DNA from: Candidatus Saliniplasma halalkaliphilum
GTDB lineage: Archaea > Thermoplasmatota > Thermoplasmata > Halarchaeoplasmatales > Halarchaeoplasmataceae
Assembly: GCA_019594235.1 (NCBI GenBank)
Contig: JAFDTG010000002.1
Location: 1 to 37,138, forward strand
Reading direction: 5' to 3'
Length of the DNA: 37,138 nucleotides
The first letter of the stretch is position 1; each line of letters starts with the position of its first letter. Of the stretch, positions 2,384 to 30,871 are shown in pieces. Under the pieces are notes generated by a model, which was not told where the DNA came from, did no database searches, and saw only the letters and a program-made list of their open reading frames with translations. The position numbers were made by a program, and so were the translations under genes.

Positions 2384-5300
2384 CTATTCCCAAACATCAT
2401 CTTCTTCGGTATCTGTGCCTGATTGTTCTTCAGTTATCTCACCGTTCTCTATTTGTTCTTCGTAGAATTCATCTTCTTCAGATAGATATTCTTCGTCATC
2501 ATAGATATCCTCTTCGGTCGTGTCCGTATATCCTGATCCGATCTTAGAATATACCGTGTAAAGTATTGCCAATAGGAGGATTATTATCAGGATGAGGAAG
2601 AACAAGTTAGTTCTGTAAATTGGTGTCGGGTATTCTTCGAAATCTACGGATTCCTCAGCTGTATCCACTAAAACTATATCTTGGTCTTCATAGATGTCCA
2701 CATCTGTTAACAAATATGTGGTTCTGAATGAAGCGTTCACGTTGTAATCATCTCTAGCTGGAAGTCTAAATTCGTATTTTCCGTCGGTAGTGTATCCTGT
2801 CCAAACCTGGTTTTCAGTACTCACTTTTAAGTGCACATCGTCTAGGTGTTCTTCGTTTCTATCAAGTGTAGTTACGGTCAAGTAGTACACATCTGAGTCT
2901 ATATCTAAAGACCAACTTTCTTCCTCTGCGGTCACCTCGTGCTGGCTTTGATGTACTACGGTATTCAACCATTCTACTTCTATATCCCAATTCTCTGCAG
3001 GTATCCTTATCTCAACTTCACCTTGGCCGTCCGTGTAACCTGAATAGTAATGTTTCGGAGAATCCTCGTAAGTAACTCGAACAGGCGCAGAGCTCAAAGG
3101 AAGACCTCTTTCGTCCCTTACCGACAAAGTAAGGTAATATATGTCTGAATCAGCGGTGATATCTATATCCTCAGATAGTTGTTCTGTTTGGGTATGTACG
3201 ACAACGTTCTTCCAGTGGACCGTAAATGTTTGTTCACCTCTTGGTAATAGGAATTGTATGTGCCCTTCTGTATCACTGATCCTGTCAGATATTATGTTCC
3301 TATCTGATGGGAGTTCAGAATGTCTAACGATGACTTTCGAGTTTTCAACGGGGATATCTCTTTCATCTATAATATAAAAGTCAACGTAATATACCTCAGC
3401 ATCTATAGTTTCTGGAGATTCCGAAAGTATGTGTTCATTAACCGTCATATCATCGTTGTAAACAACAACACCTCGCCATTCAACCAAGATTGAGATCTCG
3501 CCGGCCTCACCAACAGGTGTTGGAACTCGGATGTTTACAGTACCGTTTTCACCAGTCACACTCGAATCAAAATTCGTTCCTTCAGTGTCAAAACTGGCTC
3601 TTGCGTTGTTCAATGGATTTCCTCTAGAATCGACTATCTGGAAAGAAACGTGATAGATATCCTCTACGTGTATAACCATCTCTTCGGAAGCGTCGAATAC
3701 TACTGGACTATCATAAACCATTACACCGTTCCACTGTAGAGTGACTTGATTTGTTGCTCCGGGTATCCTTGAGAATGATCTTCCGTCTTCTGAAGTTAAT
3801 TCTGTGTGTAAGAGGGTATCACCGTGTGAGACTCTAAGTCTGCCTCCACCAACTGGGACATCAAAATCATCTTGGACCAAGAAGTCTATATGATAAACGT
3901 CCGTGATAGCAGTCATCGACAGGTCTTCATTTAGATTTATTTCATCTTGGTAAACGTCGACGTTTCTCCAACTGATGGATATATCTAGCTCTACACCAGG
4001 TAATCTCATCTCTGGTACCGAACCATCCGTTAAAGACGTGTCTTGTTCTATCAAACTGTTTCCTAGGTAGAACTCTACTCTTGCATTTTCAAGAGGTTCT
4101 CCTTGGTCGTCAACGATGTTCATATCCAAATAGTAAACCGCACATTGAATTTCGTAATCTTCACTAGAATCAATAACCATATCGCCATTATATATCTCAG
4201 CACCTTTCCATTGGACTTGCATGTTCAATACAGCTCCAGGTAATCTCATAGAAACGTTTCCATTTTCTCCTGTTGTACCACTGGTAAGTGTTCCCGCTGT
4301 ATGGTGAGATACAGTGATCCTTGCATCGGATATGATTTCATCCCTACTGTCTATGGTAAATAGTTCGACATGGTAAACAGAGCATTCCAATTCTATACTT
4401 TGATCCGTTCCAGTTATATCTACGTCCGTCACATCGACTTCTATACCTCTCCAGGTAGATATTATCCTGTGAGGGCCTCTCGGTAATCTCATAACAAGTC
4501 TACCTGCTTGATCAGTATTACCAGTATTCGCGATGGTGTCTGTTTCAAGGTTCCGAGCCACTAAGCGTGTATTTTCAAGCTCATATCCAAGATCGTCTAG
4601 AGTTTGGAGTTCAACGTAATATATCTCCAGTTCAACATCTAAAGACCTGTTTCCTTCGAATGGTTCTGAATAGAGTTCTTTAACCTCTACACCTCTCCAT
4701 TGGAAATTCAAGTCGTAGGTGAAATCTCCTCCAGTTCCGGGCAGTCTGACTGTTAAATTTCCATTTATATCAGTCAATTTAGAGTCCGCTATCCTTCGTG
4801 TATCGTTGAACCTTATAGATACGTGGACCTCCGGAACAGGTACTTCTTCGGTATCCATCGTGTGGATGTTGAGATAGTATACGTCCGTATAGATCGTCAA
4901 TTCTACACTTTCGTTCAAATAATGCTCTGTAGAATCAACTTCTCTACCAAGCCATTCAGTTCTCAAAGAATAATCTCCTACTGGGGATTGAGGTAAATGG
5001 ACGTAACCATCAGTATCCGTTATCTCGCGGATCAATGTGCTATTAGGATGACTGATAAAGATGTTTGCATTCGGTACCGGTTCTCCGGCTACATCGACGA
5101 CCTTATAGGATGTATCATATACGGAACAATTCAAAGTGATAGCATCTTCATAGGGCACATTATCGCTCACTTGGTACGTGGTCTCGTTTACCAATACATC
5201 TTCCCAGTAAACTCTGAAGATATATTCGCCTTCTGTGATACTGATATTCGTGACCCCTTCGTCATTTGTTACGTTACTAGTTATCGATTCCTCTAGATCA

Positions 5301-6427
5301 GAAGAGTAAGCAACAACTTCTGCGTCTTCTAGGACGATGTCCATCGAATCAACGGTTTGGAAGTGAATGAAAAATCTTTCCGCACCGATCCAGAAATCCT
5401 TCTCAACGGATTCCAGATGCCCGCCGTAGGTTTCATCTCCAGGGTTATCTGGATATCTGTAGTTATAACCGGTGTTATCTACTGCAGAGACTATGGCAGT
5501 GTATTCTCCTTCTGCCTGTCCCCCGTAGTCCCATTCATATGTGAAATTACTTCTGTAAGACGAATCGTTCCCGGTAACTCTAGTCATCGGTTCTCTATAG
5601 AATACGGTGCCATCAGGTCCCTCTACTGTCAAATTTACTCTGCTTATATCATACCCACCGAAAGGATTCGTGATAGATGTGTTGAAGTGTATGGTAGTTT
5701 CATCTGCTCCAAGGCGGAAATCGTAGGACTCCTCGAATTCTGAGTCAAGGATCGTGAAAGTATCCACGTCGATGTAGTCTTCTGTTTCCACTTCTATTCT
5801 GCTTGGATACTCCGAGTCGCCGAAAGCGACCCTTTTTACGAAGTTATCACTACTTTCGATGACGAATTCTACTCTCAAGGATGATTCAGGTGATATCGTA
5901 TATCCTGAGATGTCCGTAGATACTGAATATTCGTTGAATATCGTCCTAGTGTTGTCATAGCTTACAAACCCTTGATCTATGAAATCTTCTGCACCATCTG
6001 GTTGTACTTCATAAAGGCTCATCGTAAGGTCTATAGTATTAGTGTGCCCATCAGCTTCTGCTATGTCGATCCACATATTGATAGTGGAAGTTCCGTTAAG
6101 GGTAAATTCTCCGGCAAAAGGTGGATTTAGATACCAGTCATGAGTTATGGTAGAACTGTACTCAAAATCTGTTATATGCTGATCTTCACCCATGGTAGTA
6201 TTCATGGTCATTACATCAACATTCTCGTTGACCGTTCCAGTTTCATTATGCAGGTACATGGTTTTGGTTTTTGATCCATCGGTAGATGTAAGTGAATTCT
6301 CTTCTGTTATCATATTTTCTTCGATTTGACTGTTCCCATGTACTCCTGAAAATGCACTAGCTATCAAAAACAATGTTACCGCAGATACGAGTATCATTAA
6401 CATTCCTTTCATATTTCTATTACTCAT
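2384..6427 (-). CDS. Giant surface protein: signal peptide, about 330-aa N-terminal domain, about 11 tandem prealbumin/CarboxypepD_reg-like beta-sandwich repeats, one C-terminal TM helix and an acidic cytoplasmic tail
   Basis: 1347 aa. The N-terminus has a hydrophobic signal (MLMILVSAVTLFLIASAFSG). A periodic unit of about 85 aa recurs: (D/S)VYY(L/V)x(L/V)...D..G.P...A.V...G...LP...Y....W.G..V. It carries many N-x-S/T sequons. The C-terminal TM is LFFLILIIILLLAILYTVY, followed by a D/E-rich tail. It is a paralogue of the upstream gene. An AAGGAGGTG Shine-Dalgarno site lies 7 nt before the ATG, inside the end of the upstream gene. Confidence 0.85.
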   Translation of the reverse strand: MSNRNMKGMLMILVSAVTLFLIASAFSGVHGNSQIEENMITEENSLTSTDGSKTKTMYLHNETGTVNENVDVMTMNTTMGEDQHITDFEYSSTITHDWYLNPPFAGEFTLNGTSTINMWIDIAEADGHTNTIDLTMSLYEVQPDGAEDFIDQGFVSYDNTRTIFNEYSVSTDISGYTISPESSLRVEFVIESSDNFVKRVAFGDSEYPSRIEVETEDYIDVDTFTILDSEFEESYDFRLGADETTIHFNTSITNPFGGYDISRVNLTVEGPDGTVFYREPMTRVTGNDSSYRSNFTYEWDYGGQAEGEYTAIVSAVDNTGYNYRYPDNPGDETYGGHLESVEKDFWIGAERFFIHFQTVDSMDIVLEDAEVVAYSSDLEESITSNVTNDEGVTNISITEGEYIFRVYWEDVLVNETTYQVSDNVPYEDAITLNCSVYDTSYKVVDVAGEPVPNANIFISHPNSTLIREITDTDGYVHLPQSPVGDYSLRTEWLGREVDSTEHYLNESVELTIYTDVYYLNIHTMDTEEVPVPEVHVSIRFNDTRRIADSKLTDINGNLTVRLPGTGGDFTYDLNFQWRGVEVKELYSEPFEGNRSLDVELEIYYVELQTLDDLGYELENTRLVARNLETDTIANTGNTDQAGRLVMRLPRGPHRIISTWRGIEVDVTDVDITGTDQSIELECSVYHVELFTIDSRDEIISDARITVSHHTAGTLTSGTTGENGNVSMRLPGAVLNMQVQWKGAEIYNGDMVIDSSEDYEIQCAVYYLDMNIVDDQGEPLENARVEFYLGNSLIEQDTSLTDGSVPEMRLPGVELDISISWRNVDVYQDEINLNEDLSMTAITDVYHIDFLVQDDFDVPVGGGRLRVSHGDTLLHTELTSEDGRSFSRIPGATNQVTLQWNGVMVYDSPVVFDASEEMVIHVEDIYHVSFQIVDSRGNPLNNARASFDTEGTNFDSSVTGENGTVNIRVPTPVGEAGEISILVEWRGVVVYNDDMTVNEHILSESPETIDAEVYYVDFYIIDERDIPVENSKVIVRHSELPSDRNIISDRISDTEGHIQFLLPRGEQTFTVHWKNVVVHTQTEQLSEDIDITADSDIYYLTLSVRDERGLPLSSAPVRVTYEDSPKHYYSGYTDGQGEVEIRIPAENWDIEVEWLNTVVHQSQHEVTAEEESWSLDIDSDVYYLTVTTLDRNEEHLDDVHLKVSTENQVWTGYTTDGKYEFRLPARDDYNVNASFRTTYLLTDVDIYEDQDIVLVDTAEESVDFEEYPTPIYRTNLFFLILIIILLLAILYTVYSKIGSGYTDTTEEDIYDDEEYLSEEDEFYEEQIENGEITEEQSGTDTEEDDVWE

Positions 6428-6428
6428 C

Positions 6429-9400
6429 TTAAAACACCTCCTTTTTCTTAGCGATTATTATTCCACCGACTACGCAGATACCTACTATGGCCATTACTAT
6501 GTAGAACAGGTTAGTTTTGTATATCGGTCTTGGATATCCTTCAAAGGTCATCTGGATCTGTTGACTCGAATCTAGTGAAACATCTTCGGTCTCCTGGAGG
6601 TCTATCTCTGTTAAATGTTGAGTTTTTCTCAATCTAGTTGACACGGTGTAATCCCCATAAACTATCTGTTTAAACTCGACGGTTCCATTCCCATCAGTTT
6701 CAAGTGTTTCAATCGGGGTTCCTTCACTATCTATAAGAGTAACCTCTGAACCTATTACCGGACCATCTTGACCTTCTATCACAACTTCCAGATAGTGCAC
6801 CATCGTTTCTAGACTGATCTCTTTATCCCCTGTCAATTCAGTATCCACAGAACCGACTTTTTGTCCACGCCAGTACGCATCCAATGTCCATTCCCCGATC
6901 GGAAGTTTTGGAGTAGCTGCGCCTATATCCGTGACTTCGGTATGGAACGGCACTCCGTCTTCATCCGTGATTATCAGGTCCGCGCCATCTAAGTATTCGC
7001 CTTCAGAATCAACTACTTCTACATCGATATAGTAGATCTCACACTGGATAGAGAATTCAGTATCATCGTTTACTTCTACCGTTTGATCCGCTATGTAGAA
7101 TCCTCTCCATTCAGCTTCCAAACGGATGACACCATAAGGTAATCTGATCTCAGGTTCATCATCGATGGATATGGTGGTTAGCAGGTCTTGCCCCTCGGGT
7201 AAACCTTCGTGATAAACCGACACTACCAGGTCTTCAACATTTTCTCCCCGGGAGTCCTCGCCTGTGAGATGTAGATAATACACATCGCAATCCAAATTCA
7301 TCTCTGAACTCTCGCTTATAGCATGAGTAACGTTGTAAACCTCGATGCCGTCCCATTCTACAGATATATCGAATTCTTCGTGTGGTAATCTTAGGGCAAC
7401 AGTACCGTTTTCAGGAATCCTTTTTGTTTCAAAAAGATTACCCCTGTGTACAAAATTCACTTCAGCATCTGTTAAAGTTTCATCTCTACTGTCTAAAGGT
7501 GTTACATCGACCCAATATACCGAGGTTGAAATCGTCAGTTCCAGATCATCTTCTAATTGGATATCAGTCTGGCCAACATCGAAGTCTCTCCATTCTAGAT
7601 ATATATCATATTCTTCGGAAGGTAATCTGATCGTTAAAGTACCCGTATGGTCGGTCACTTCGGAGAAAAGTAGAGAATCATCGAGATATATTTCAGCTCT
7701 TGTACCAGGTAGTATTTCTTCCTCAGCATCGGTGACGTTCATGGTTAGATAATAGATGTCAGAGTCGATAGTGAGTTCATTTTCTCCTTGTTCATGAACC
7801 ATGCTGTACTCTCTTGAATCTACCTCTACACCATACCATTCTGCCTTTATAGTGTAAGATTCCACAGGTAGTCTTAAGCGGAGACCTCCGTCACTATCAC
7901 TGGTACCGCTTTCGATCAAAGAATCCTGATATTCAACATCGATACTAACTCCTTGGACAGGAGTATCTCTTGAATCTATAACCGTTAGGTCTAGGTAGTA
8001 CACGTCACAGTTTTTTATCTGTAGGTCATCGTTGCCTTCGACTGGGTAGCCGTCTATCGAACGTACCTGGATACCCTTCCATTCTACTTCTATATCGACA
8101 TCCGTAGCGGGTAATTTAGATATATACACACCATCCTCGTCGGTATTACCGGTATCCACGAGATTACCATCGATCCTCACGGATATCCGTGCGTCAGGGA
8201 GTGTTTCTTCATCTACGGTACTATCCAAAGCGATTATGTTTAATTGATAAACCGAAGCTTCGATCTCAAAGTCCGTTTGAGTTTCTGAAACAACTCTTAG
8301 TTCACTAGCTACGTTTACACCGATCCATGTTACATCGAACCGATGCTCACCATCTGCTAACTGGAATGTAACCAAACCGTCGCTATCTGTCGTATCCGTA
8401 TCTATTTCACGCTCAGTTTCGGTATAGGTTGCGGTGACTTCAGCTCCTTCTAGTGGATCTTCTAGACTGTCATAAACAGTTACTGAAACCTGGAAAATAT
8501 CCGCAGTTAGAACTATCTCAGAGCTTTCACTCAATTCATAAGTTTCTTCGTAAACTTTTGCGTCGTTCCAGTAAATCTCGAAGAAGTATCCAGTTGCCGG
8601 TAATCTAGTGGTGAAGACTCCTTCACCGTCCGTTAAACCACTGTCTGAAACGATCCTAGTGTCGTCATAGGAACCTACAAATAAAGCATTGGAAACTGAA
8701 CCACCGGAACGGTCCTGCACCTGAACTTGAAGGTGATATACCAAAACATTAACTTCAAAATCATCAGAAGTTGAAACGTCTATGGAAAACTCTCCTACAT
8801 CTCTTCCTTTCCATTCGATATCTAACTCGTATCGACCTTCAGCGGTTCTGTCTAGTGAGAAATAACCGTCGTCATCGGTGACATAAGGATCGACTCTTGT
8901 TGAACCATTGGGGTGGGTTAAGTATACGTTCGCATTATCCACCACTTCGCCTTCCATATCTTTAATGATAAAACCGGGATAAAATATACCGGCTGTAACT
9001 TCGAATGGGTCATCTCTAGTTCTATTACCCACTTCTCCCACGTCTAAAGTGCGGTTAGTACTGACTTCAACGTCCTGCCAGATCACAGTGATTATATATG
9101 TTGCATTGGCAACGGTGAAATTTGCGATCCCCTCATTATCGGTCATAGTGGTGTTAAAGACCACTTCATCACTGACCTTCAAGTTGATCGTTGTATTTTC
9201 TAGTATCTCTCCGTGATCGTCACTTACTTGTATGTTAACATAATGGTCCAATCCTCCTATAACAAAAGAATGGTATCCGTACTCATCATGACCTTGGAAC
9301 TCACCTGTTCTATTATACGCTAGTTTTCCGTTTCTATCTATGGTTCTTACTGTTACGTCGTATACTCCTTCTGGTTGTCCATCGTGATCCCAGGTCATCT

Positions 9401-22806: not shown

Positions 22807-23202
22807 TTAAATTTCAAATTCCTTTTTTATTTTATCTATTAGTTCGTCAAAGCTCTCATTTCCATAGATGCTATTGTATACATTCAAGAAACCGAGGACC
22901 ATATCTTTTGCATCATCTTCAAGATTCTTTATCTCTGTTTTTCTCTCTTCTAGGGTCTCTTCACCTTTATCCGTTAAACTATAATATTTTCTATCTTCTG
23001 GGCCTTGCTCAGCCCGTTCTATGAGACCCTTTTTTTCCATCCTGTTCAACGCGCCATATACAGTGCCGTAACTAGGATTCCAATGTCCGTTAGATATCTC
23101 TTTCAATCTCTTGATGATCTCATATCCGTAAGTCGCCCCTTCCTCTTTCATCGTTTTAAATATTAGATAGCTAATAAGCTCACTAGGCAGCCTTTTTTGC
23201 AT
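22807..23202 (-). CDS. PadR family transcriptional regulator (module 1)
   Basis: GATYGYEIIKRLKEISNGHWNPSYGTVYGALNRMEKKGLIE is the canonical PadR winged-helix signature. It is divergent from permease pair 1. Confidence 0.88.
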   Translation of the reverse strand: MQKRLPSELISYLIFKTMKEEGATYGYEIIKRLKEISNGHWNPSYGTVYGALNRMEKKGLIERAEQGPEDRKYYSLTDKGEETLEERKTEIKNLEDDAKDMVLGFLNVYNSIYGNESFDELIDKIKKEFEI

Positions 23203-23275
23203 CTTTATTCCTGGAATTGGATAGATGATGAGATTATTTGGTCTTTTGGGAAAAGTATTATATATCGTACCGCAA

Positions 23276-23292
23276 TACTACGCAACGTAATA
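23276..23292. promoter_or_regulatory. Imperfect 7-3-7 inverted repeat (TACTACG-CAA-CGTAATA); candidate PadR operator over the predicted TSS/5' end of permease pair 1
   Basis: 6/7 arm complementarity. It lies 10-26 nt upstream of ATG 23302, downstream of a TATA-like ttatatat (23258-23265), and abuts the GGTG Shine-Dalgarno site (23293-23296). Confidence 0.35.
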
Positions 23293-23301
23293 GGTGTAAA
23301 G

Positions 23302-23784
23302 ATGAACATAACCGCTATCGGACTCATAATATTGGCCATTTCTTTATTGATATGGTCCTTTACTAAAGATAAAGAGAAAACGATAAAAGGTTTGAACGTG
23401 GCGAAAAACATGTTCAAAGGTATCGCTGTAGAGATAATATCTATATTGGCTCTTATAGGACTGTTTTTAACGCTGGTTCCTCCCGGGACTATAAGGTCTG
23501 TATTAGGTGATACCTCTGTTATAGAGGCCACTTTTATCTCAGCAGCTTTCGGTACCATAACATTGATACCTGCATTTGTGGCGTTTCCCCTTGCTTCTTC
23601 TTTGGTGGATGAGGGAGCTCATCTAGTTTCAATGGCAGCTTTCATCACAACCCTTACAATGGTCGGTTTCATAACGGCACCGATAGAGATCGAATATTTT
23701 GGTAAAAAATTCACTTTAGTAAGAAATGTACTTAGCTTCCTAGCAGCCATCTTGATCTCACTTGGTATGGGGTTGATATTATGA
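23302..23784 (+). CDS. Split permease subunit A1 (COG0701 / PF03773 'predicted permease' family, half-size)
   Basis: 160 aa from ATG 23302 (Shine-Dalgarno GGTG). It is a clear paralogue of 29502-29984, also 160 aa. Shared blocks: IPAFVAFPLASSL versus IPALIAFPLAASM, AAFITTLTMVGFIT versus AAFITTLTMIGIVT, and GKKFTLVRNVLSF versus GKKFALLRNGLSF. The track start at 23197 adds an implausible non-membrane extension that overlaps PadR. Confidence 0.7.
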   Translation: MNITAIGLIILAISLLIWSFTKDKEKTIKGLNVAKNMFKGIAVEIISILALIGLFLTLVPPGTIRSVLGDTSVIEATFISAAFGTITLIPAFVAFPLASSLVDEGAHLVSMAAFITTLTMVGFITAPIEIEYFGKKFTLVRNVLSFLAAILISLGMGLIL

Positions 23785-24500
23785 AATTTAGATTGGAAAC
23801 GATAGTTAAATTTTTCAAAGATAATAAGATAGCGGCTTTCACTATATTCGCTTATGTCGTTGTTTTTGTATATTCTCCAAATCTAGGTATCGACAGTTTA
23901 AAAATGACGGCATCTTACTTTTTAGAGATGCTGGAGATATTACCGGCTGTTTTTATAGTCATGGGCATGGTTGAAGTTTGGGTATCTCGAGAAACGATAA
24001 TGGGAATATTCGGTAAAGGATCTGGAATTAAGGGTAGATTCGCTTCGGTTTTGATAGGTTCTTTCTCAGCCGGACCAATATATGCAGCTTTTCCCGTCTG
24101 TTTTACGCTGTTGAAAAAAGGCTCATCGGTCTCAAACATCGTGATAATACTGAGCGCATGGGCCGTGGTCAAAGCACCGATGTTGATAGTTGAAACTCAA
24201 TTCATGGGATTGTCCTTCATGTTAGTAAGGTACATATTCACCGTACCGGCGATAATCATGATAGGGATCATCACTGGTAAGATTATCAGTAAGGAATACG
24301 TTATAAAAAATTCAAGTAAGGATGGCTTACTAGTTGAAAGGATAGATGAATTATTACCCGGCCATAACTGTGGTGCTTGTGGATACGGTTCATGCAGGGA
24401 GACTGCCGAGCAGATCGCTGATGGAGACGAGGAACCGGATGTTTGCGTTCCATTGGAAGAGGAAAAGACTATCAGGGAACTGTTAGAAACCTGTTCCTGA
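23781..24500 (+). CDS. Split permease subunit B1 with a C-terminal RnfB-type Cys4 (putative [4Fe-4S]) domain
   Basis: ATGA overlap with A1. It is a paralogue of 28963-29505 (ILPAV..MG, G.GSG.KG, GPIYAAFP/GPLYVAFP, KKGxxxSNIVxxLSAWA). It has an extra tail of about 55 aa: IDELLPGHNCGACGYGSCRETAEQIADGDEEPDVCVP, with Cys spacing C-x2-C-x4-C-x16-C. Confidence 0.7.
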   Translation: MKFRLETIVKFFKDNKIAAFTIFAYVVVFVYSPNLGIDSLKMTASYFLEMLEILPAVFIVMGMVEVWVSRETIMGIFGKGSGIKGRFASVLIGSFSAGPIYAAFPVCFTLLKKGSSVSNIVIILSAWAVVKAPMLIVETQFMGLSFMLVRYIFTVPAIIMIGIITGKIISKEYVIKNSSKDGLLVERIDELLPGHNCGACGYGSCRETAEQIADGDEEPDVCVPLEEEKTIRELLETCS

Positions 24501-24656
24501 TCTTCTTCCGTCTTTTCGTCAATCAGCCTTTTCCATAAGAGCTTCTAAGAGATCCATCACACCTACATCCCTAGCGGTCCTTTTCAAGTATTCCTTGTCC
24601 ATGTCCTCCTGGCGTGTGATTATACTCAAAACGTCTTCAAGGTCCTGTTCGCATTT

Positions 24657-25226
24657 TTGCTTTATATAAACAAACTCCAGTTATGGATCGTAGTTTTCAT
24701 CATCGGTGCCGTTGCTTCCATCGGTTTAGGAAGGTTCTACTGTGGTTGGATTTGTCCTATGGGGTCATTATCAAGGCCGATCATCTGGTTGAAAGATAAA
24801 TTGTCTTTGGGCGATATGGGTGTTCCGGATATATTGAGATCAAAGAAACTCCGGTATTCGATAGTGCTGATATTTTTCGGTACGATGATCGTTCTAAGAA
24901 TTTTAGGTATGGAACTGCCAGTACTGCTCATCATAACTGTGATAGGTGTGGCCTTCATGACGGTCTTCGACGAGGAGTTATTTCATAAGTACTTATGTCC
25001 GTATGGGACCATACTGAGCGTTACCTCGAAACCTTCGAGATACGTGATGAGAGTAGATACCGAAGAGTGTATCGGATGTGGTAGATGTCAGAGCGTATGT
25101 CCAACCGATACCATAGACACGTTGGATTCGGGGAAAAGACAGATTATCGATGGAGAATGCCTCAAATGCTTCAAGTGCCAGGATGTCTGTCCCGCTGACT
25201 GTATAGGATACAGTAAAAAAGAGTAA
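24657..25226 (+). CDS. Membrane-bound polyferredoxin, NapH/MauN-like (CxxxCP membrane motif plus 2x[4Fe-4S])
   Basis: RFYCGWICPMGSL and YLCPYGTILS are membrane-proximal motifs. The C-terminal part has CIGCGRCQSVCPTDTI and CLKCFKCQDVCPADCI. There is no in-frame ATG before the first motif, so the TTG at 24657 is only the track's guess. Confidence 0.65.
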   Translation: MLYINKLQLWIVVFIIGAVASIGLGRFYCGWICPMGSLSRPIIWLKDKLSLGDMGVPDILRSKKLRYSIVLIFFGTMIVLRILGMELPVLLIITVIGVAFMTVFDEELFHKYLCPYGTILSVTSKPSRYVMRVDTEECIGCGRCQSVCPTDTIDTLDSGKRQIIDGECLKCFKCQDVCPADCIGYSKKE

Positions 25227-28962: not shown

Positions 28963-29505
28963 TCATCCATCTATTACACCATTAGTTCTTTTCATCATCC
29001 ACTCTATAACAAATCCCATCAATCCAACGAATATTATTGTAAGCGACAACCTTGCCAGCATGAACTCAGGACCTAAAAACTGAAGTTCCACCATCTCCTG
29101 AGGTATCTTGATACACGCCCAGGCCGATAGGAACACTACGATGTTGGATATCCGAGCACCTTTCTTGATCAAAGTAGATGCCATCGGAAACGCGACGTAC
29201 AGGGGTCCAGTGGGTAAAGTACCGAATAAAATCGCTAGAAAAAATCCTTTAGAACCAGAAGCTTTACCGAGATGCTTCACAACTGTTTCTTCAGGTATGT
29301 AAACGGAGAACAGCCCCATCAACACCATCACCGCAGGAAGTATGAATGCCATCTCCGTCAGGTAATCCATAGAAGTGTTAAAAACCGCTCCTCGTCTATC
29401 AGGGTAGATGGAGACCAGGATCAGTGCAACGATGAACATCCCAGCCAATAACATCCAATTCCGGATCATCTTCTTCTTATTTTCCTTCTTTTTCTCCTCC
29501 TTCAC
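28963..29505 (-). CDS. Split permease subunit B2 (COG0701 / PF03773 family), lacking the Fe-S tail of B1
   Basis: Paralogue of 23781-24500 (see that entry). The GTG start overlaps the A2 stop by 4 nt. An alternative ATG at 29469 (MIRNWML...) exists. Confidence 0.7.
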   Translation of the reverse strand: MKEEKKKENKKKMIRNWMLLAGMFIVALILVSIYPDRRGAVFNTSMDYLTEMAFILPAVMVLMGLFSVYIPEETVVKHLGKASGSKGFFLAILFGTLPTGPLYVAFPMASTLIKKGARISNIVVFLSAWACIKIPQEMVELQFLGPEFMLARLSLTIIFVGLMGFVIEWMMKRTNGVIDG

Positions 29506-29984
29506 AGTATCACCCCTATCAATATAGCGATGATGATAGCTATAATGAAACTTAGACCATTTCTTAGAAGAGCAAACTTCTTGCCTAGTATTTTTATCTC
29601 CATGGGCAGGGTGACTATCCCTATCATAGTCAGTGTAGTTATGAAGGCGGCCACGGCCATAACTGTAGCACCGCTTTCAAGCATCGAAGCAGCAAGTGGA
29701 AATGCTATAAGAGCGGGTATATGCAGCACAGCACCCACCGCCCCAACAAGTAAAACACCTAGGATGCCCGACTGCTCACCTACGAATCGTGATATCTCCG
29801 CTGGAGGTACGAACCCCAGCATCAATCCTATTATTATTATGATAATGAGTATCGTCGGTAAAATACCGAATAACGATTTAGCTGCCTTTTTCAACGATTT
29901 AACCGCTTTATCTCTATCCCTATAGAAGCCATAGATCAAGCAGACCAGAGCGAATGCATTGATTAATATGGCTGTGATACTCAT
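29502..29984 (-). CDS. Split permease subunit A2 (COG0701 / PF03773 family)
   Basis: 160 aa, paralogue of A1. There is an ATGA overlap with the upstream cupin gene, and GGTGGA lies upstream of the ATG. Confidence 0.7.
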   Translation of the reverse strand: MSITAILINAFALVCLIYGFYRDRDKAVKSLKKAAKSLFGILPTILIIIIIIGLMLGFVPPAEISRFVGEQSGILGVLLVGAVGAVLHIPALIAFPLAASMLESGATVMAVAAFITTLTMIGIVTLPMEIKILGKKFALLRNGLSFIIAIIIAILIGVIL

Positions 29985-30271
29985 CCGTCCACCTTTTCGA
30001 CCTGTATTCCCAGTAGTTTCACTCCTTTCTCCGTTTTCATCGAATACAAACCGGGTTCAGAGATCAAGCATTCACCTTCTTCCAAAGTCGCTTTATCATC
30101 ATCCACTGTGATCTCAACTTCGCCTTCCAGTACTATAAATATCACGTGTGACGACATATCGCAGGGCGGTATCTTATCACCCTTCGACAGCTGTATGTGT
30201 CTCGCTTTGAACTCGTCTCGTTCGTAGATCAGTTTCTTGCCTTCTATCTCTTTCAAATTATACGTTTCCAT
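29981..30271 (-). CDS. Small cupin-domain protein
   Basis: 96 aa from ATG 30271 (GGAGGTGA 5 nt upstream). The beta-barrel pattern HIQLSKGDKIPPCDMSSHVIFIVLEGEVEITVDD...EGECLISEPG resembles cupin_2. Confidence 0.6.
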   Translation of the reverse strand: METYNLKEIEGKKLIYERDEFKARHIQLSKGDKIPPCDMSSHVIFIVLEGEVEITVDDDKATLEEGECLISEPGLYSMKTEKGVKLLGIQVEKVDG

Positions 30272-30650
30272 CTTTTTCACCTCCAAATTCTTTCTCATAA
30301 AAACTGGTCATCTTCTCCATCATCCTTTTACGCTCCTTGATCATCTCGAGCCAGCTCTTCAGATGTCCCCTCCCCTCTTCGGTTATACGGTAAACTCTTT
30401 TATCCGGGCCGGTGTCACTTTTCTTCCAATCTGACCTAAGTAGTCCTTTCTCCTCCATCCTTCTCAGTGTCGTGTACATCGTTCCAGATTTGATCTTGTG
30501 TCTCCCCTCGCTCAGTTCCTCGATCCTTTTGATGACACCATATCCGTGCATGGGTTTCTCACAGACCACACGCAGTATCAGGAACTGCAGCCATCTACCT
30601 TCTGGGTAACCATGAGGATGTTTACATTTCTGTTTCGATTTTTTACACAT
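30258..30650 (-). CDS. PadR family transcriptional regulator (module 2) with a Cys/His-containing N-terminal extension
   Basis: PMHGYGVIKRIEELSEGRHKIKSGTMYTTLRRMEEKGLL is the PadR signature. From ATG 30650 the N-terminus is MCKKSKQKCKHPHG. The track start at 30668 is a TTG 6 codons upstream. Confidence 0.85.
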   Translation of the reverse strand: MCKKSKQKCKHPHGYPEGRWLQFLILRVVCEKPMHGYGVIKRIEELSEGRHKIKSGTMYTTLRRMEEKGLLRSDWKKSDTGPDKRVYRITEEGRGHLKSWLEMIKERKRMMEKMTSFYEKEFGGEKDGNV

Positions 30651-30871
30651 CGATATACTATGTAACAATGTTAGATATATCGTTTTCCCTAGGATGAAAA
30701 ACTAAGAGACCAAATAATCAGGACGAAATAAACTAAGCTCATCGTAAATAAATCGTTTAATTTTTGAAAACCCATTAAAATCATAGAGAACGATTTGAAC
30801 TTTGATATTTCATATCGAAATTTTAATTAGTCTGTTATAGTATAGTGTTATATTCTTTAGGAGGGTTAAAC

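What the first reader, a model, noticed from the sequence alone, without database searches (positions are those of the whole stretch)
24340..24500. RnfB-type Cys4 Fe-S motif fused to the C-terminus of one split-permease subunit only
- B1 carries a cytoplasmic tail of about 55 aa that B2 lacks: IDELLPGHNCGACGYGSCRETAEQIADGDEEPDVCVP.
- The Cys codons are at 24369, 24378, 24393 and 24444.
- The spacing C-x2-C-x4-C-x16-C and the surrounding residues mirror the N-terminal [4Fe-4S] domain of RnfB/RsxB (E. coli RsxB, as I recall it: [25 protein letters not shown]...C).
- A redox-active cluster attached to a transporter half suggests redox- or Fe-S-status-gated transport, or electron input from the NapH-like polyferredoxin encoded 156 nt downstream.
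- The paralogous module instead has a cupin and a Cys/His-tagged PadR. The two copies therefore seem to have acquired different sensory inputs.
Basis: partly seen in the sequence, partly recalled or inferred. Interest (0 to 1): 0.65.

Follow-up and report, generated by a model that had tools for sequence, protein, structure and literature searches.

The report
Iron-sulfur tail on a split permease
One half of a two-gene membrane transporter in this archaeon ends in a genuine RnfB-type iron-sulfur domain; the fusion is conserved in hundreds of anaerobes, usually beside nitric-oxide-stress genes, and nobody has tested what it does.

Summary
B1 (23781-24500, 239 aa) is a half-size PF03773/ArsP-type permease. 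Residues 192-224 match PF04060 end to end (43.8 bits, cut-off 23), with C-x2-C-x4-C-x16-C at the stated codons.

- **Conservation:** the four Cys are invariant in 57 relatives from named genomes. The tail is under purifying selection.
- **Fold:** the predicted tail superposes on the solved [4Fe-4S] domain of the corrinoid/iron-sulfur protein.
- **Spread:** the fusion is not peculiar to this genome. It occurs in Thermoplasmatota, Hadarchaeota, Bacillota, Thermotogota, Spirochaetota and Atribacterota, always paired with a tail-less A subunit.
- **Second tail type:** a sister clade in Clostridia, including C. tetani, carries a mono-cluster ferredoxin (PF13370) in the same place.
- **Neighbours:** Crp/Fnr regulators recur, some with the HcpR2 signature. 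So do hybrid cluster protein, a 105-aa cupin, NapH-like polyferredoxins and hemerythrins.
- **Topology:** charge bias puts the tail in the cytoplasm and suggests A and B are antiparallel.

My best reading is a cluster-state (redox/NO/O2) switch on a stress-regulon transporter. An RnfB-like electron relay is nearly as likely.

The function is untested in the searched literature.

The parts
22807..23202 (-). PadR-family regulator (PadR1), transcribed divergently from A1/B1
   Evidence: PF03551 at E 1e-21. A PadR gene lies in the same position in about 12 archaeal relatives.
23276..23292 (.). Candidate PadR operator, TACTACG-CAA-CGTAATA, just upstream of A1
   Evidence: Read directly. Archaeal relatives carry TTACG-N3-CGTAA or TTAC-N5-GTAA palindromes upstream of A: 9 loci, none with a Crp neighbour. 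The window copy is one mismatch from that core.
23302..23784 (+). A1, the tail-less half-permease subunit (160 aa). Its stop overlaps the B1 start by 4 nt (ATGA).
   Evidence: PF03773 at E 8e-7, 28.9 bits, below the cut-off of 32.3. An A gene of about 160 aa precedes B in 60 of 75 loci. K+R loop bias implies N-terminus out, the inverse of B.
23781..24284 (+). B1 membrane core (residues 1-168), with a helix broken at the invariant S96-A97-G98-P99
   Evidence: PF03773 at 46.5 bits against 32.3. AF2 model has pLDDT 90.9, with helices 79-94 and 100-112 split at SAGP. Invariant K113, N119, K131, E138 and R150; no conserved Cys or His.
24285..24353 (+). Linker (residues 169-191), two short helices tethering the Fe-S domain to the last TM helix
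   Evidence: pLDDT dips to 73-82 here. Sequence and length vary among relatives. TIGR01944 rnfB aligns residues 153-228 to model positions 6-79, that is TM helix plus tether plus cluster domain.
24354..24452 (+). RnfB/CFeSP-type [4Fe-4S] domain (residues 192-224), with Cys codons at 24369, 24378, 24393 and 24444
   Evidence: PF04060 at 43.8 bits against 23, full length. Same coordinates in the genome scan. Sequence hits to solved RnfB (8ahx_B, 7zc6_B) and CFeSP (2h9a_A, 4djd_C). Foldseek finds 2ycl_A, 4c1n_G, 9fzy_F and 4djd_C at probability 1.00, rmsd 2.2-2.8 A. Cys invariant. Tail omega 0.19 against L008.
24453..24500 (+). C-terminal helix after the cluster domain (residues 228-238) and stop codon. 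Cys238 is not conserved.
   Evidence: AF2 secondary structure. The alignment shows variable C-termini.
24501..24650 (-). Remnant of the 3' end of a minus-strand gene, filling most of the 156-nt 'intergenic' gap
   Evidence: Window 24457-24650 is 92% identical to the stretch of contig C28 (L002 382-575) that holds the end of an intact 164-aa ORF.
24657..25226 (+). NapH-like membrane polyferredoxin (189 aa, TTG start): two CX3CP motifs and two [4Fe-4S] motifs
   Evidence: Fer4_5 and Fer4 dicluster hits. TIGR02163 at 77 bits against a cut-off of 213, so not a NapH orthologue. About 39 aa shorter at the N-terminus than bacterial homologues, lacking one TM helix. The 3' 113 codons have omega 0.08 against L008, so the gene is under selection. 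Homologues flank the module in L033, L053, L056, L067, L069 and L072.
28963..29505 (-). B2, the tail-less paralogue of B1
   Evidence: PF03773 at 49.9 bits. 41% identical to the B1 core. Separate long-branch clade with L008_B14 and L011_B4.
29502..29984 (-). A2, the paralogue of A1
   Evidence: 45% identical to A1. NCBIfam gives weak hits to SaoE and SO_0444.
29981..30298 (-). Small cupin (105 aa) of module 2
   Evidence: Cupin_2 at 28.5 bits against 27.2. The same BLAST cluster of cupins lies near B in 21 of 75 loci, mostly Fe-S-tailed ones.
30258..30668 (-). PadR2, the regulator of module 2, with a Cys/His-rich N-terminus
   Evidence: TIGR03433 PadR at E 1e-23. Same BLAST cluster as the PadR genes beside Fe-S-tailed modules.

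Best explanation
**Shown.** A1 and B1 are the two subunits of a split, half-size permease of the ArsP/PF03773 (UPF0718) superfamily. B1 alone carries, on a roughly 20-residue tether after its last transmembrane helix, a complete RnfB/CFeSP-type four-Cys [4Fe-4S] domain. This architecture is an old, conserved clade found in strict anaerobes of at least six phyla. Its sister clade carries a mono-cluster ferredoxin domain at the same position.

**Inferred from charge bias.** A and B are antiparallel, and the tail lies in the cytoplasm next to the inward-facing mouth of the transporter.

**Inferred mechanism, my commitment.** The cluster acts as a state switch. When it is intact and reduced, the tethered domain adopts one docking state on the A/B vestibule. 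When it is oxidised, nitrosylated or lost (NO, O2, or poor Fe-S supply), it adopts another. That change opens or closes transport of a small solute handled by the hcp-type nitrosative or oxidative-stress response. The solute is possibly an N-oxyanion such as nitrite, but it is unknown.

In bacteria the operon is under Crp/Fnr regulators, some with the HcpR2 signature. In this archaeon it is under PadR1.
For: **Identity of the tail**
- Pfam and NCBIfam hits.
- Sequence matches to solved RnfB and CFeSP cluster domains.
- AF2 model at pLDDT 90.9, whose only credible PDB matches are CFeSP [4Fe-4S] domains.

**Conservation**
- All 120 best relatives have PF04060+PF03773.
- Cys are invariant.
- Tail omega is 0.19.

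**An Fe-S domain as such is what is kept**
- 15 Clostridial B subunits carry PF13370 instead.
- They form the sister clade. The two tailed clades group together at 88/95 support, apart from tail-less B2.

**The cluster looks accessory rather than part of the transport core**
- Tail-less half-permeases are the majority of the wider family. Only about 11 of the listed best 150 50%-identity representatives align through the tail.
- Neither membrane part has any conserved Cys or His to receive an electron.

**Cytoplasmic location**
- K+R-rich N-terminus, loop 2 and tail in B; the inverse pattern in A.

**Stress context within about 5 genes of B in 75 loci**
- Crp/Fnr regulator: 36 loci.
- Cupin: 21.
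- Hcp: 7-10, in both archaea and bacteria.
- NapH-like polyferredoxin: 7.
- Also hemerythrin, a thioredoxin-reductase-like gene and a SufR-like gene.

**Direct regulation by the neighbouring Crp/Fnr**
- The palindrome upstream of A covaries with the regulator's recognition helix: RPSxSR with GTAAC-N4-GTTAC, which is the HcpR2 box; RExxSR with TGTGA-N6-TCACA; RTSLSR with GTTAC-N4-GTAAC (box and Pro-181 rule from PMC1274295).

**Literature**
- The C. tetani locus is Crp (divergent), A (160 aa), B-ferredoxin (239 aa). This fits the CTC0896/0897/0898 unit that PMC1274295 predicted to belong to an HcpR2-paralogue regulon.
- Precedent for an Fe-S cluster proposed to regulate a transporter: FeoC (bioRxiv 10.1101/2022.02.26.482101).
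Against: - Every characterised PF04060 domain (RnfB, CFeSP) is an electron carrier, not a sensor. The ferredoxin that replaces it in the sister clade is also a classic carrier.
- Polyferredoxin genes recur beside the module, which fits electron flow.
- In bacteria the operon already has a transcriptional sensor, so a second sensor is not obviously needed.
- In this window there is no hcp and no Crp/Fnr gene within 37 kb.
- The substrate is unknown, and no cluster has been shown biochemically.
- Antiparallel topology rests on the positive-inside rule only.
Confidence: 0.42

Rival explanations
1. Electron relay, working like RnfB. The tethered [4Fe-4S] domain is a swinging arm that accepts electrons from ferredoxin or from a membrane polyferredoxin (NapH-like, FrdX-like). 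It passes them to a partner enzyme such as Hcp, or directly to the solute bound in the inward-facing vestibule of A/B. Transport would then be coupled to a one-electron reduction.
For: - PF04060 domains of known function carry electrons. In RnfB a single TM helix, a flexible tether and this small cluster domain feed the antiparallel RnfA/RnfE heterodimer (review PMC12174285).
- B1 residues 153-228 align to exactly that part of the rnfB model.
- The sister clade uses a ferredoxin domain.
- A NapH-like gene lies directly downstream of B in L053, L056, L069 and the window. Free ferredoxin, a thioredoxin-reductase-like gene and an FrdX-like di-cluster protein occur in Thermoplasmata loci.
- hcp-A-B lie in one direction in L029, L046/L051 and L064.
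Against: - A and B have no conserved Cys or His in the membrane to accept an electron, unlike RnfA/E with their four-Cys [2Fe-2S] site (PMC12174285).
- Most loci (about 68 of 75) have no polyferredoxin neighbour.
- Tail-less paralogues exist, so the core does not need electrons.
- An all-Cys cubane has no open site for catalysis.
Confidence: 0.33
2. Metal or metalloid exporter in the ArsP / SO_0444 / SaoE sense. The Fe-S (or simply Cys4) tail, the PadR regulators, the cupin and the nearby LTxxQ and ABC-2/CARDB genes would form a metal-stress island. The NapH-like protein would act as a CcoG-like metal reductase.
For: - The nearest named families are SaoE and the SO_0444 Cu/Zn efflux family, though only at E about 1e-4.
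- The wider family is linked to soft-metal efflux (bioRxiv 10.1101/2022.07.06.499078).
- PadR2 has a Cys/His-rich N-terminus.
Against: - The CSC motif is described as the most conserved feature of SO_0444 and SaoE. It is absent here: A1 has no Cys, and B1 has only one non-conserved Cys in its membrane part.
- No ars, cop or czc genes recur in the 75 neighbourhoods. hcp, Crp/Fnr regulators and hemerythrin do.
- NCBIfam scores are far below the cut-offs (about 20 bits against 300-325).
Confidence: 0.12
3. The tail has no redox role. It is a structural or assembly module, for example a Zn-binding Cys4 knuckle, or a docking site that recruits a soluble partner to the membrane.
For: - No biochemical data exist.
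- Four-Cys sites can bind Zn.
- The linker is flexible.
Against: - The match is specific and full-length to a domain whose solved members all hold [4Fe-4S].
- A structurally unrelated domain that is also a cluster binder replaces it in the sister clade. This argues that the cluster itself is what selection keeps.
Confidence: 0.08

Closest known systems
RnfB (RsxB) N-terminal module: TM helix, flexible tether, small [4Fe-4S] domain (PDB 8ahx_B, 7zc6_B, 9eri_B)
   Same: - Same PF04060 domain, with LPG-x-NCG-x-CG and C-x2-C-x4-C-x16-C.
- It follows a TM helix on the cytoplasmic side via a flexible tether.
- It sits next to a heterodimer of two homologous membrane subunits, which for A/B I infer to be antiparallel.
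   Different: - No C-terminal di- or poly-ferredoxin domain.
- TIGR01944 scores 48.7 bits against a cut-off of 68.7.
- No rnf genes nearby. The only two PF04060 matches in this 69%-complete assembly are this gene and its near-copy on contig C28.
- The membrane partner is a PF03773 permease without an intramembrane [2Fe-2S] site.
N-terminal [4Fe-4S] domain of the corrinoid/iron-sulfur protein large subunit (AcsC/CdhE; PDB 2ycl_A, 4djd_C, 2h9a_A)
   Same: Best structural match of the predicted tail: 54-58 aligned columns, rmsd 2.2-2.8 A, 26-38% identity, Foldseek probability 1.00. Same Cys spacing.
   Different: That protein is soluble, and its domain reactivates a corrinoid cofactor. There is no corrinoid domain and no acetyl-CoA pathway context here.
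ArsP / SO_0444 / SaoE permeases (PF03773, TC 2.A.119)
   Same: Same Pfam family and the same repeat-unit logic of the transporter fold. Half-size '4-TMS' members are noted in PMC7176098.
   Different: - Split into two genes, with the gene order permuted: the A2 paralogue aligns to the second half of the SO_0444 model and B2 to the first.
- No CSC motif.
- No arsenic or metal context.
- An Fe-S domain is attached.
Clostridium tetani CTC0896-CTC0897-CTC0898 (HcpR2 paralogue, 'permease', 'ferredoxin-like protein'), predicted regulon member in Rodionov et al. 2005 (PMC1274295)
   Same: - Same A/B split permease with an Fe-S tail on B.
- A divergent regulator.
- It is the sister clade of the window's B1.
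   Different: - The tail is a PF13370 mono-cluster ferredoxin, not PF04060.
- The regulator is Crp/Fnr, not PadR.
- I matched gene order and sizes, not the locus tags themselves.
FeoC, the [4Fe-4S]-binding accessory protein of the Feo ferrous-iron transporter
   Same: An oxygen-labile [4Fe-4S] cluster on a cytoplasmic element, proposed to regulate a transporter (bioRxiv 10.1101/2022.02.26.482101).
   Different: Unrelated fold (winged helix) and a separate polypeptide. Its own regulatory role is still a proposal.

Membership tests
PF04060 / PROSITE PS51656-type '4Fe-4S domain' (RnfB, CFeSP) | Profile match above the curated threshold over the whole domain | tested here: met
   43.8 bits against gathering score 23, E 2.1e-11, model positions 1-33 of 33. 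47.4 bits in the six-frame genome scan. The PROSITE profile itself is not available in these tools.
PF04060 / PROSITE PS51656-type '4Fe-4S domain' (RnfB, CFeSP) | Four cluster-ligand Cys with spacing C-x2-C-x4-C-x16-C, conserved in orthologues | tested here: met
   C197, C200, C205 and C222. Invariant in 25-, 63- and 57-sequence alignments. 117 of 120 database relatives keep the pattern.
PF04060 / PROSITE PS51656-type '4Fe-4S domain' (RnfB, CFeSP) | Fold like the solved cluster-binding domain | tested here: met
   AF2 pLDDT is 89-93 over the domain. Foldseek hits only to CFeSP N-terminal domains: 2ycl_A, 4c1n_G, 9fzy_F and 4djd_C.
PF04060 / PROSITE PS51656-type '4Fe-4S domain' (RnfB, CFeSP) | Actually binds a [4Fe-4S] cluster | not testable with these tools
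   Needs anaerobic purification with UV-vis, EPR or Mossbauer spectroscopy.
RnfB subunit of the Rnf complex | Full-length match to the rnfB models, including the C-terminal ferredoxin domains | tested here: not met
   TIGR01944 at 48.7 bits against 68.7, covering only model positions 6-79 of 190. The equivalog models score 33-43 bits against cut-offs of 203-445.
RnfB subunit of the Rnf complex | Encoded in an rnfCDGEAB cluster | tested here: not met
   No rnf genes lie in the window. The only two PF04060 matches in the assembly are both this permease type. The assembly is 69% complete.
ArsP / PF03773 permease family (TC 2.A.119) | Pfam match above threshold | tested here: met
   B1 at 46.5 bits and B2 at 49.9 bits, against 32.3. 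A1 is below threshold at 28.9 bits, E 8e-7.
ArsP / PF03773 permease family (TC 2.A.119) | Conserved CSC or vicinal-Cys substrate motif of the characterised metal(loid) exporters (ArsP, SO_0444, SaoE) | tested here: not met
   There is no CSC in A1, B1, A2 or B2. No column in either membrane part holds Cys or His in 30% or more of sequences.
ArsP / PF03773 permease family (TC 2.A.119) | Single polypeptide with two repeat units | tested here: not met
   Two overlapping genes of 160 and 239 aa here, and in 60 of 75 related loci.
HcpR / hcp nitrosative-stress regulon | Adjacent Crp/Fnr regulator of HcpR type with a matching operator upstream of the operon | tested here: not met
   In this window the regulator is PadR, and there is no Crp/Fnr gene in 37 kb. 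The feature is met in relatives:
- 36 of 75 loci have a Crp/Fnr neighbour.
- 10 of these have the HcpR2 signature RP-S-x-SR.
- Four perfect GTAAC-N4-GTTAC boxes lie 51-92 nt upstream of A, and a fifth lies at -283.
HcpR / hcp nitrosative-stress regulon | Co-localisation with hcp | tested here: inconclusive
   hcp lies within about 6 kb in 10 of 75 related loci, including three Thermoplasmata. There is none in this 37-kb contig. The rest of the genome could not be searched because the genome search closed.
NapH/MauN family (the downstream gene) | Score above the family cut-off; four TM helices, two CX3CP motifs and two [4Fe-4S] motifs | tested here: not met
   TIGR02163 at 77.4 bits against 213. 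The motifs are present, but the ORF lacks the first TM helix of its nearest homologues. It resembles NapH and is not an orthologue.

The most novel reading that the evidence does not exclude
The A/B(Fe-S) pair is a new class of secondary transporter whose alternating-access cycle is controlled by, or chemically coupled to, a tethered [4Fe-4S] cluster. The RnfB-type domain would dip into the inward-open vestibule of an antiparallel half-permease heterodimer, much as RnfB does with RnfA/E. There it would either gate the pore according to NO/O2/redox state, or reduce the bound solute, for example a nitrogen oxide. That would make it a missing membrane component of the hcp-type nitrosative-stress defence of strict anaerobes.
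Probability: 0.3. Interest if true: 0.8.

Novelty: new variant of a known kind. Interest (0 to 1): 0.55.

Why it matters
**For transport biology.** Secondary transporters with a built-in iron-sulfur cluster are essentially undescribed. This one is conserved in at least several hundred species of anaerobic archaea and bacteria. It has kept an Fe-S domain through a swap of domain type. It also sits repeatedly beside hcp, whose physiological partners are still debated.

**For stress physiology.** If the cluster gates or drives transport, the system would be a simple, genetically compact model for redox- or NO-controlled membrane transport. It would also give a function to a gene pair that annotation pipelines call only 'permease'. 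The C. tetani copy was flagged as a predicted HcpR2-paralogue regulon member in 2005, and I found no follow-up on it in the library searches I ran.

**For this window.** The result turns a curiosity into a defined, testable member of that family.

Tried and rejected
1. **NapH-like gene as a dead remnant.** It is about 39 aa short at the N-terminus, has a TTG start with no obvious ribosome-binding site, and abuts a gene remnant. I rejected this as stated. Its 3' 113 codons have omega 0.08 against the L008 orthologue, so it has been under purifying selection. Its start remains uncertain.
2. **One universal HcpR2 box upstream of all bacterial A genes.** Only 5 of 36 Crp-linked loci have GTAAC-N4-GTTAC within one mismatch. 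De novo palindrome counting showed three operator types that track the regulator's recognition helix.
3. **Natural A-B fusions, to stand in for a heterodimer model.** The four long 'B' ORFs (L034, L056, L062, L071) are artefacts of my ORF caller in high-GC DNA: N-terminal extensions of arginine-rich nonsense.
4. **Literature searches.** PF03773/PF04060, UPF0718/COG0701/YraQ and DUF318 gave nothing on this subfamily.
5. **Foldseek on the membrane part.** There is no credible solved homologue.
7. **Heterodimer model.** An A1/B1 model could not be made because the structure tool takes one chain.
Full report
**1.

Its start overlaps the stop of the upstream 160-aa gene A1 (23302..23784) by ATGA. 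The four Cys codons are at 24369, 24378, 24393 and 24444 (C197, C200, C205, C222). The spacing is C-x2-C-x4-C-x16-C.

Pfam finds two domains:
- PF03773 (ArsP_1) at residues 40-179: 46.5 bits, cut-off 32.3.
- PF04060 ('Putative Fe-S cluster') at residues 192-224: 43.8 bits, cut-off 23, E 2e-11, covering the whole 33-position model.

NCBIfam's rnfB subfamily model aligns residues 153-228 to model positions 6-79. That stretch is the last TM helix, a tether and the cluster domain. The score of 48.7 bits is below the cut-off of 68.7.

The tail alone finds the solved N-terminal cluster domains of RnfB (8ahx_B at E 2.7e-4; 7zc6_B; 9eri_B) and of the corrinoid/iron-sulfur protein (2h9a_A, 4c1n_A, 4djd_C), with the Cys aligned.

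An AlphaFold2 model built on 63 relatives has mean pLDDT 90.9. Its only credible matches in the PDB are CFeSP [4Fe-4S] domains: 2ycl_A, 4c1n_G, 9fzy_F and 4djd_C, at probability 1.00 and rmsd 2.2-2.8 A. The membrane part has no solved relative.

B2 (28963..29505, minus strand) is 41% identical over the core and has no tail. A1 and A2 are 45% identical.

**2. The fusion is conserved, widespread and under selection**

A search of about 5.8 billion proteins gave 1954 relatives. All 120 best hits carry PF04060 plus PF03773. Source names are only 'permease', '(Fe-S)-binding protein', 'Fe-S cluster protein' or 'YraQ/UPF0718'.
- 117 of the 120 keep the full Cys pattern.
- The four Cys, together with L192 and P193, are invariant in the 25- and 57-sequence alignments; in the 63-sequence alignment the Cys are invariant and L192/P193 at least 90% conserved.

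The best 80 come from Thermoplasmatota, Hadarchaeota, a Thermococci-labelled MAG, Bacillota (Clostridia, Halanaerobiales, Limnochordia), Thermotogota, Spirochaetota, Atribacterota and a Dehalococcoidales MAG.

Against the closest relative (L008, 89% aa identity), omega is 0.07 for the core and 0.19 for the tail.

At 50% clustering, 955 representatives match at E 1e-3 or better. Only about 11 of the listed best 150 align through the tail. Most are tail-less proteins of about 175-185 aa. The Fe-S-tailed form is therefore a distinct minority clade inside a large family of half-size permease subunits.

**3. A second kind of Fe-S tail**

Fifteen of the 80 loci, all Clostridia, have a B subunit of the same length whose tail is CxxCxxC...CP. 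Pfam calls it PF13370 (Fer4_13, a mono-cluster ferredoxin) at E 4.6e-11. A database search with one of them gave 2523 relatives. Nearly all of the best 120 have PF03773 plus PF13370, and they include C. tetani, C. aceticum and Caminicella.

I built a maximum-likelihood tree of the permease cores only, with the tails cut off and A subunits as outgroup:
- The PF04060-tailed sequences form one group (support 80/75).
- The ferredoxin-tailed sequences form its sister group (90/79).
- The two together (88/95) are separated by a long branch from the tail-less B2 type.

Either one Fe-S tail replaced the other or both were gained separately. In both cases selection has kept a cluster-binding domain at this position. 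That argues the cluster itself is the functional element.

**4. Anatomy and topology**

A and B are always adjacent. An A gene of about 160 aa precedes B in 60 of 75 loci, and the rest were missed by my crude ORF caller. A never has a tail.

In B the K+R-rich segments are the N-terminus (mean 3.8), loop 2 (3.95) and the post-TM5 tail (3.6). In A they are loop 1 (6.6) and loop 4 (2.4). By the positive-inside rule:
- B is N-in and C-in, so the tail is cytoplasmic.
- The homologous core of A is inverted, so A and B would form an antiparallel heterodimer.

This requires the third hydrophobic segment of each subunit to be a broken or re-entrant element. The model indeed splits helix 79-94 from helix 100-112 at the invariant S96-A97-G98-P99.

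Conserved polar residues are K113, N119, K131, E138 and R150 in B. In A they are an E, an R-N pair and a TTLTMVG motif. Neither membrane part has a conserved Cys or His. So there is no intramembrane cofactor site and no CSC motif. Haft's preprint names CSC as the hallmark shared by SO_0444 and SaoE.

The linker (residues 169-191) has lower confidence and varies in sequence, so the cluster domain is tethered rather than fixed.

**5. Genomic context**

I called ORFs in the 80 loci and clustered them by BLASTP. I named the clusters with Pfam and NCBIfam and with the precomputed Pfam tables of four look-ups.

| Neighbour within about 5 genes of B | Loci (of 75) | Note |
|---|---|---|
| Crp/Fnr regulator | 36 | bacteria |
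| Cupin, about 105 aa | 21 | both domains of life |
| TetR | 12 | |
| PadR | 12 | archaea |
| Hybrid cluster protein (Hcp) | 7-10 | see below |
| NapH-like polyferredoxin | 7 | L008 fragment, L033, L053, L056, L067, L069, L072 |

- Hcp neighbours include three Thermoplasmata (L012, L013, L018), several Bacillota and a spirochaete. In L029, L046/L051 and L064, hcp-A-B lie in one direction.
- In Thermoplasmata there are also hemerythrins, a thioredoxin-reductase-like flavoprotein, a free mono-cluster ferredoxin, a SufR-like regulator and a di-cluster 'FrdX-like' protein.
- For a single-copy gene, 10 loci with hcp inside about 12 kb is some 30 times the chance expectation. This is my estimate, assuming genomes of about 3 Mb.

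The palindrome upstream of A covaries with the regulator's recognition helix:
- RPSxSR goes with GTAAC-N4-GTTAC.
- RExxSR goes with TGTGA-N6-TCACA.
- RTSLSR goes with GTTAC-N4-GTAAC.

The first pair is exactly the HcpR2 box and the Glu181-to-Pro signature defined by Rodionov et al. 2005 (PMC1274295). [quoted passage not shown] The C. tetani locus I fetched has exactly that layout: Crp/Fnr (divergent), A (160 aa), B-Fer4_13 (239 aa). I did not check the locus tags.

**6. This window**

The regulator here is PadR1. Its candidate operator (23276-23292) is one mismatch from the TTACG-N3-CGTAA core shared by archaeal relatives. There is no hcp and no Crp/Fnr gene in the 37-kb contig.

The only other PF04060 match in the 1.39-Mb, 69%-complete assembly is a near-copy of the whole PadR-A-B unit on contig C28. 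It is 88% identical at the protein level and is followed by a small antitoxin-like gene and a PIN gene.

The 156-nt gap after B1 is not plain spacer. Positions 24457-24650 are 92% identical to the C28 stretch that holds the end of an intact minus-strand 164-aa gene, so this is a remnant.

The NapH-like ORF (24657..25226) starts with TTG and lacks about 39 N-terminal residues, one TM helix, compared with its bacterial homologues. Its last 113 codons still show omega 0.08 against L008. I therefore treat it as functional, with an uncertain start.

**7. How it most likely works**

Shown:
- A real RnfB/CFeSP-type cluster domain, conserved.
- It sits on one subunit of a split permease.
- It is interchangeable with a ferredoxin domain.
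- It belongs to operons next to Crp/Fnr regulators (some HcpR2-type), hcp and other redox-stress genes.

Inferred:
- Cytoplasmic location.
- Antiparallel A/B.

Two mechanisms fit.

*(a) Switch.* The state of the cluster (reduced and intact, versus oxidised, nitrosylated or lost) changes how the tethered domain docks on the inward vestibule, and so gates transport. Points in favour:
- Tail-less paralogues exist.
- There is no electron acceptor in the membrane part.
- The context is stress response.
- FeoC is a precedent.

*(b) Relay.* The domain is a swinging arm like that of RnfB. In RnfB, a TM helix, a tether and this same small domain feed the RnfA/RnfE heterodimer of duplicated subunits (PMC12174285). 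Here it would take electrons from ferredoxin or a NapH-like/FrdX-like partner and pass them to Hcp or to the bound solute. Points in favour:
- The known roles of both tail types are electron transfer.
- Polyferredoxin neighbours recur.

I put (a) at about 0.4 and (b) at about 0.33. A metal-efflux reading (about 0.12) is weakened by the missing CSC motif and the absence of metal-resistance neighbours.

The substrate is unknown. A small nitrogen oxyanion is a guess from context and from the conserved K/R/E residues.

**8. Comparison, novelty and verdict**

- It is a member of PF04060, with all testable features met.
- It is a member of PF03773 by profile. It is not an RnfB, not a characterised ArsP/SO_0444/SaoE-type exporter, and not a NapH system (see the membership table).
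- The domain pair is already visible in precomputed Pfam tables and automatic names, so the architecture is not a discovery. I found no paper that describes or tests it beyond the 2005 one-line regulon prediction for the ferredoxin-tailed cousin.
The cupin accompanies Fe-S-tailed modules in at least 14 genomes.
- I rate it a new variant of a known kind, interest 0.55.

Noticed in passing
window 24457-24650 (minus strand); L002 382-575: Most of the 156-nt gap between B1 and the NapH-like gene is the 3' remnant of a minus-strand gene. That gene is intact (164 aa) on contig C28 of the same assembly (92% nt identity). The B1/NapH-like junction is therefore a rearrangement scar, not a designed intergenic region.
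   Followed up: partly
L002 (= G000 contig C28:3556-6555), ORFs 2749-3000, 2166-2648, 1450-2169, 1099-1353, 707-1102: A second PadR-A-B(Fe-S) unit, 88% identical at the protein level, sits on a 6.5-kb contig of the same MAG. It is followed by an 84-aa gene and a 131-aa PIN-like gene, as in the closest relative L008. The last 45 nt of B appear twice, flanking that cassette. This could be a true paralogue or a co-binned sister strain (contamination estimate 2.8%).
   Followed up: partly
L059, L070, L075-L087 (B genes near locus position 6000-6720); L088 5001-5720 (C. tetani): In a Clostridial sister clade, a mono-cluster ferredoxin domain (PF13370/PF13459) replaces the PF04060 tail at the same position on the B subunit.
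   Followed up: yes
upstream of the A genes in L027-L087 (the 250 nt before A): Three operator palindromes covary with the recognition helix of the adjacent Crp/Fnr regulator: GTAAC-N4-GTTAC with RPSxSR, TGTGA-N6-TCACA with RExxSR, and GTTAC-N4-GTAAC with RTSLSR. This is a clean case of regulator/operator co-evolution around one operon.
   Followed up: partly
L011, L012, L013, L014, L018, L019 (Thermoplasmata relatives): A recurring redox-stress island surrounds the module: Hcp, two hemerythrins, a thioredoxin-reductase-like flavoprotein with a small ferredoxin, a SufR-like regulator (TIGR02702 at 78 bits, below cut-off), a 270-aa di-cluster protein with an unassigned C-terminal domain, and the small cupin.
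   Followed up: partly
window 24657-24700: The NapH-like ORF has only a TTG start with no visible ribosome-binding site. A TTTATATAA (TATA-like) lies just inside it at 24661-24669, and the first in-frame ATG is 34 codons in, inside the first CX3CP motif. Its real start and transcript are unclear.
   Followed up: no
window 23197-23301: The mechanical ORF for A1 starts at a TTG at 23197 (195 aa), overlapping the PadR1 start. Homologues are 158-163 aa, so the ATG at 23302 is the likely start.
   Followed up: partly
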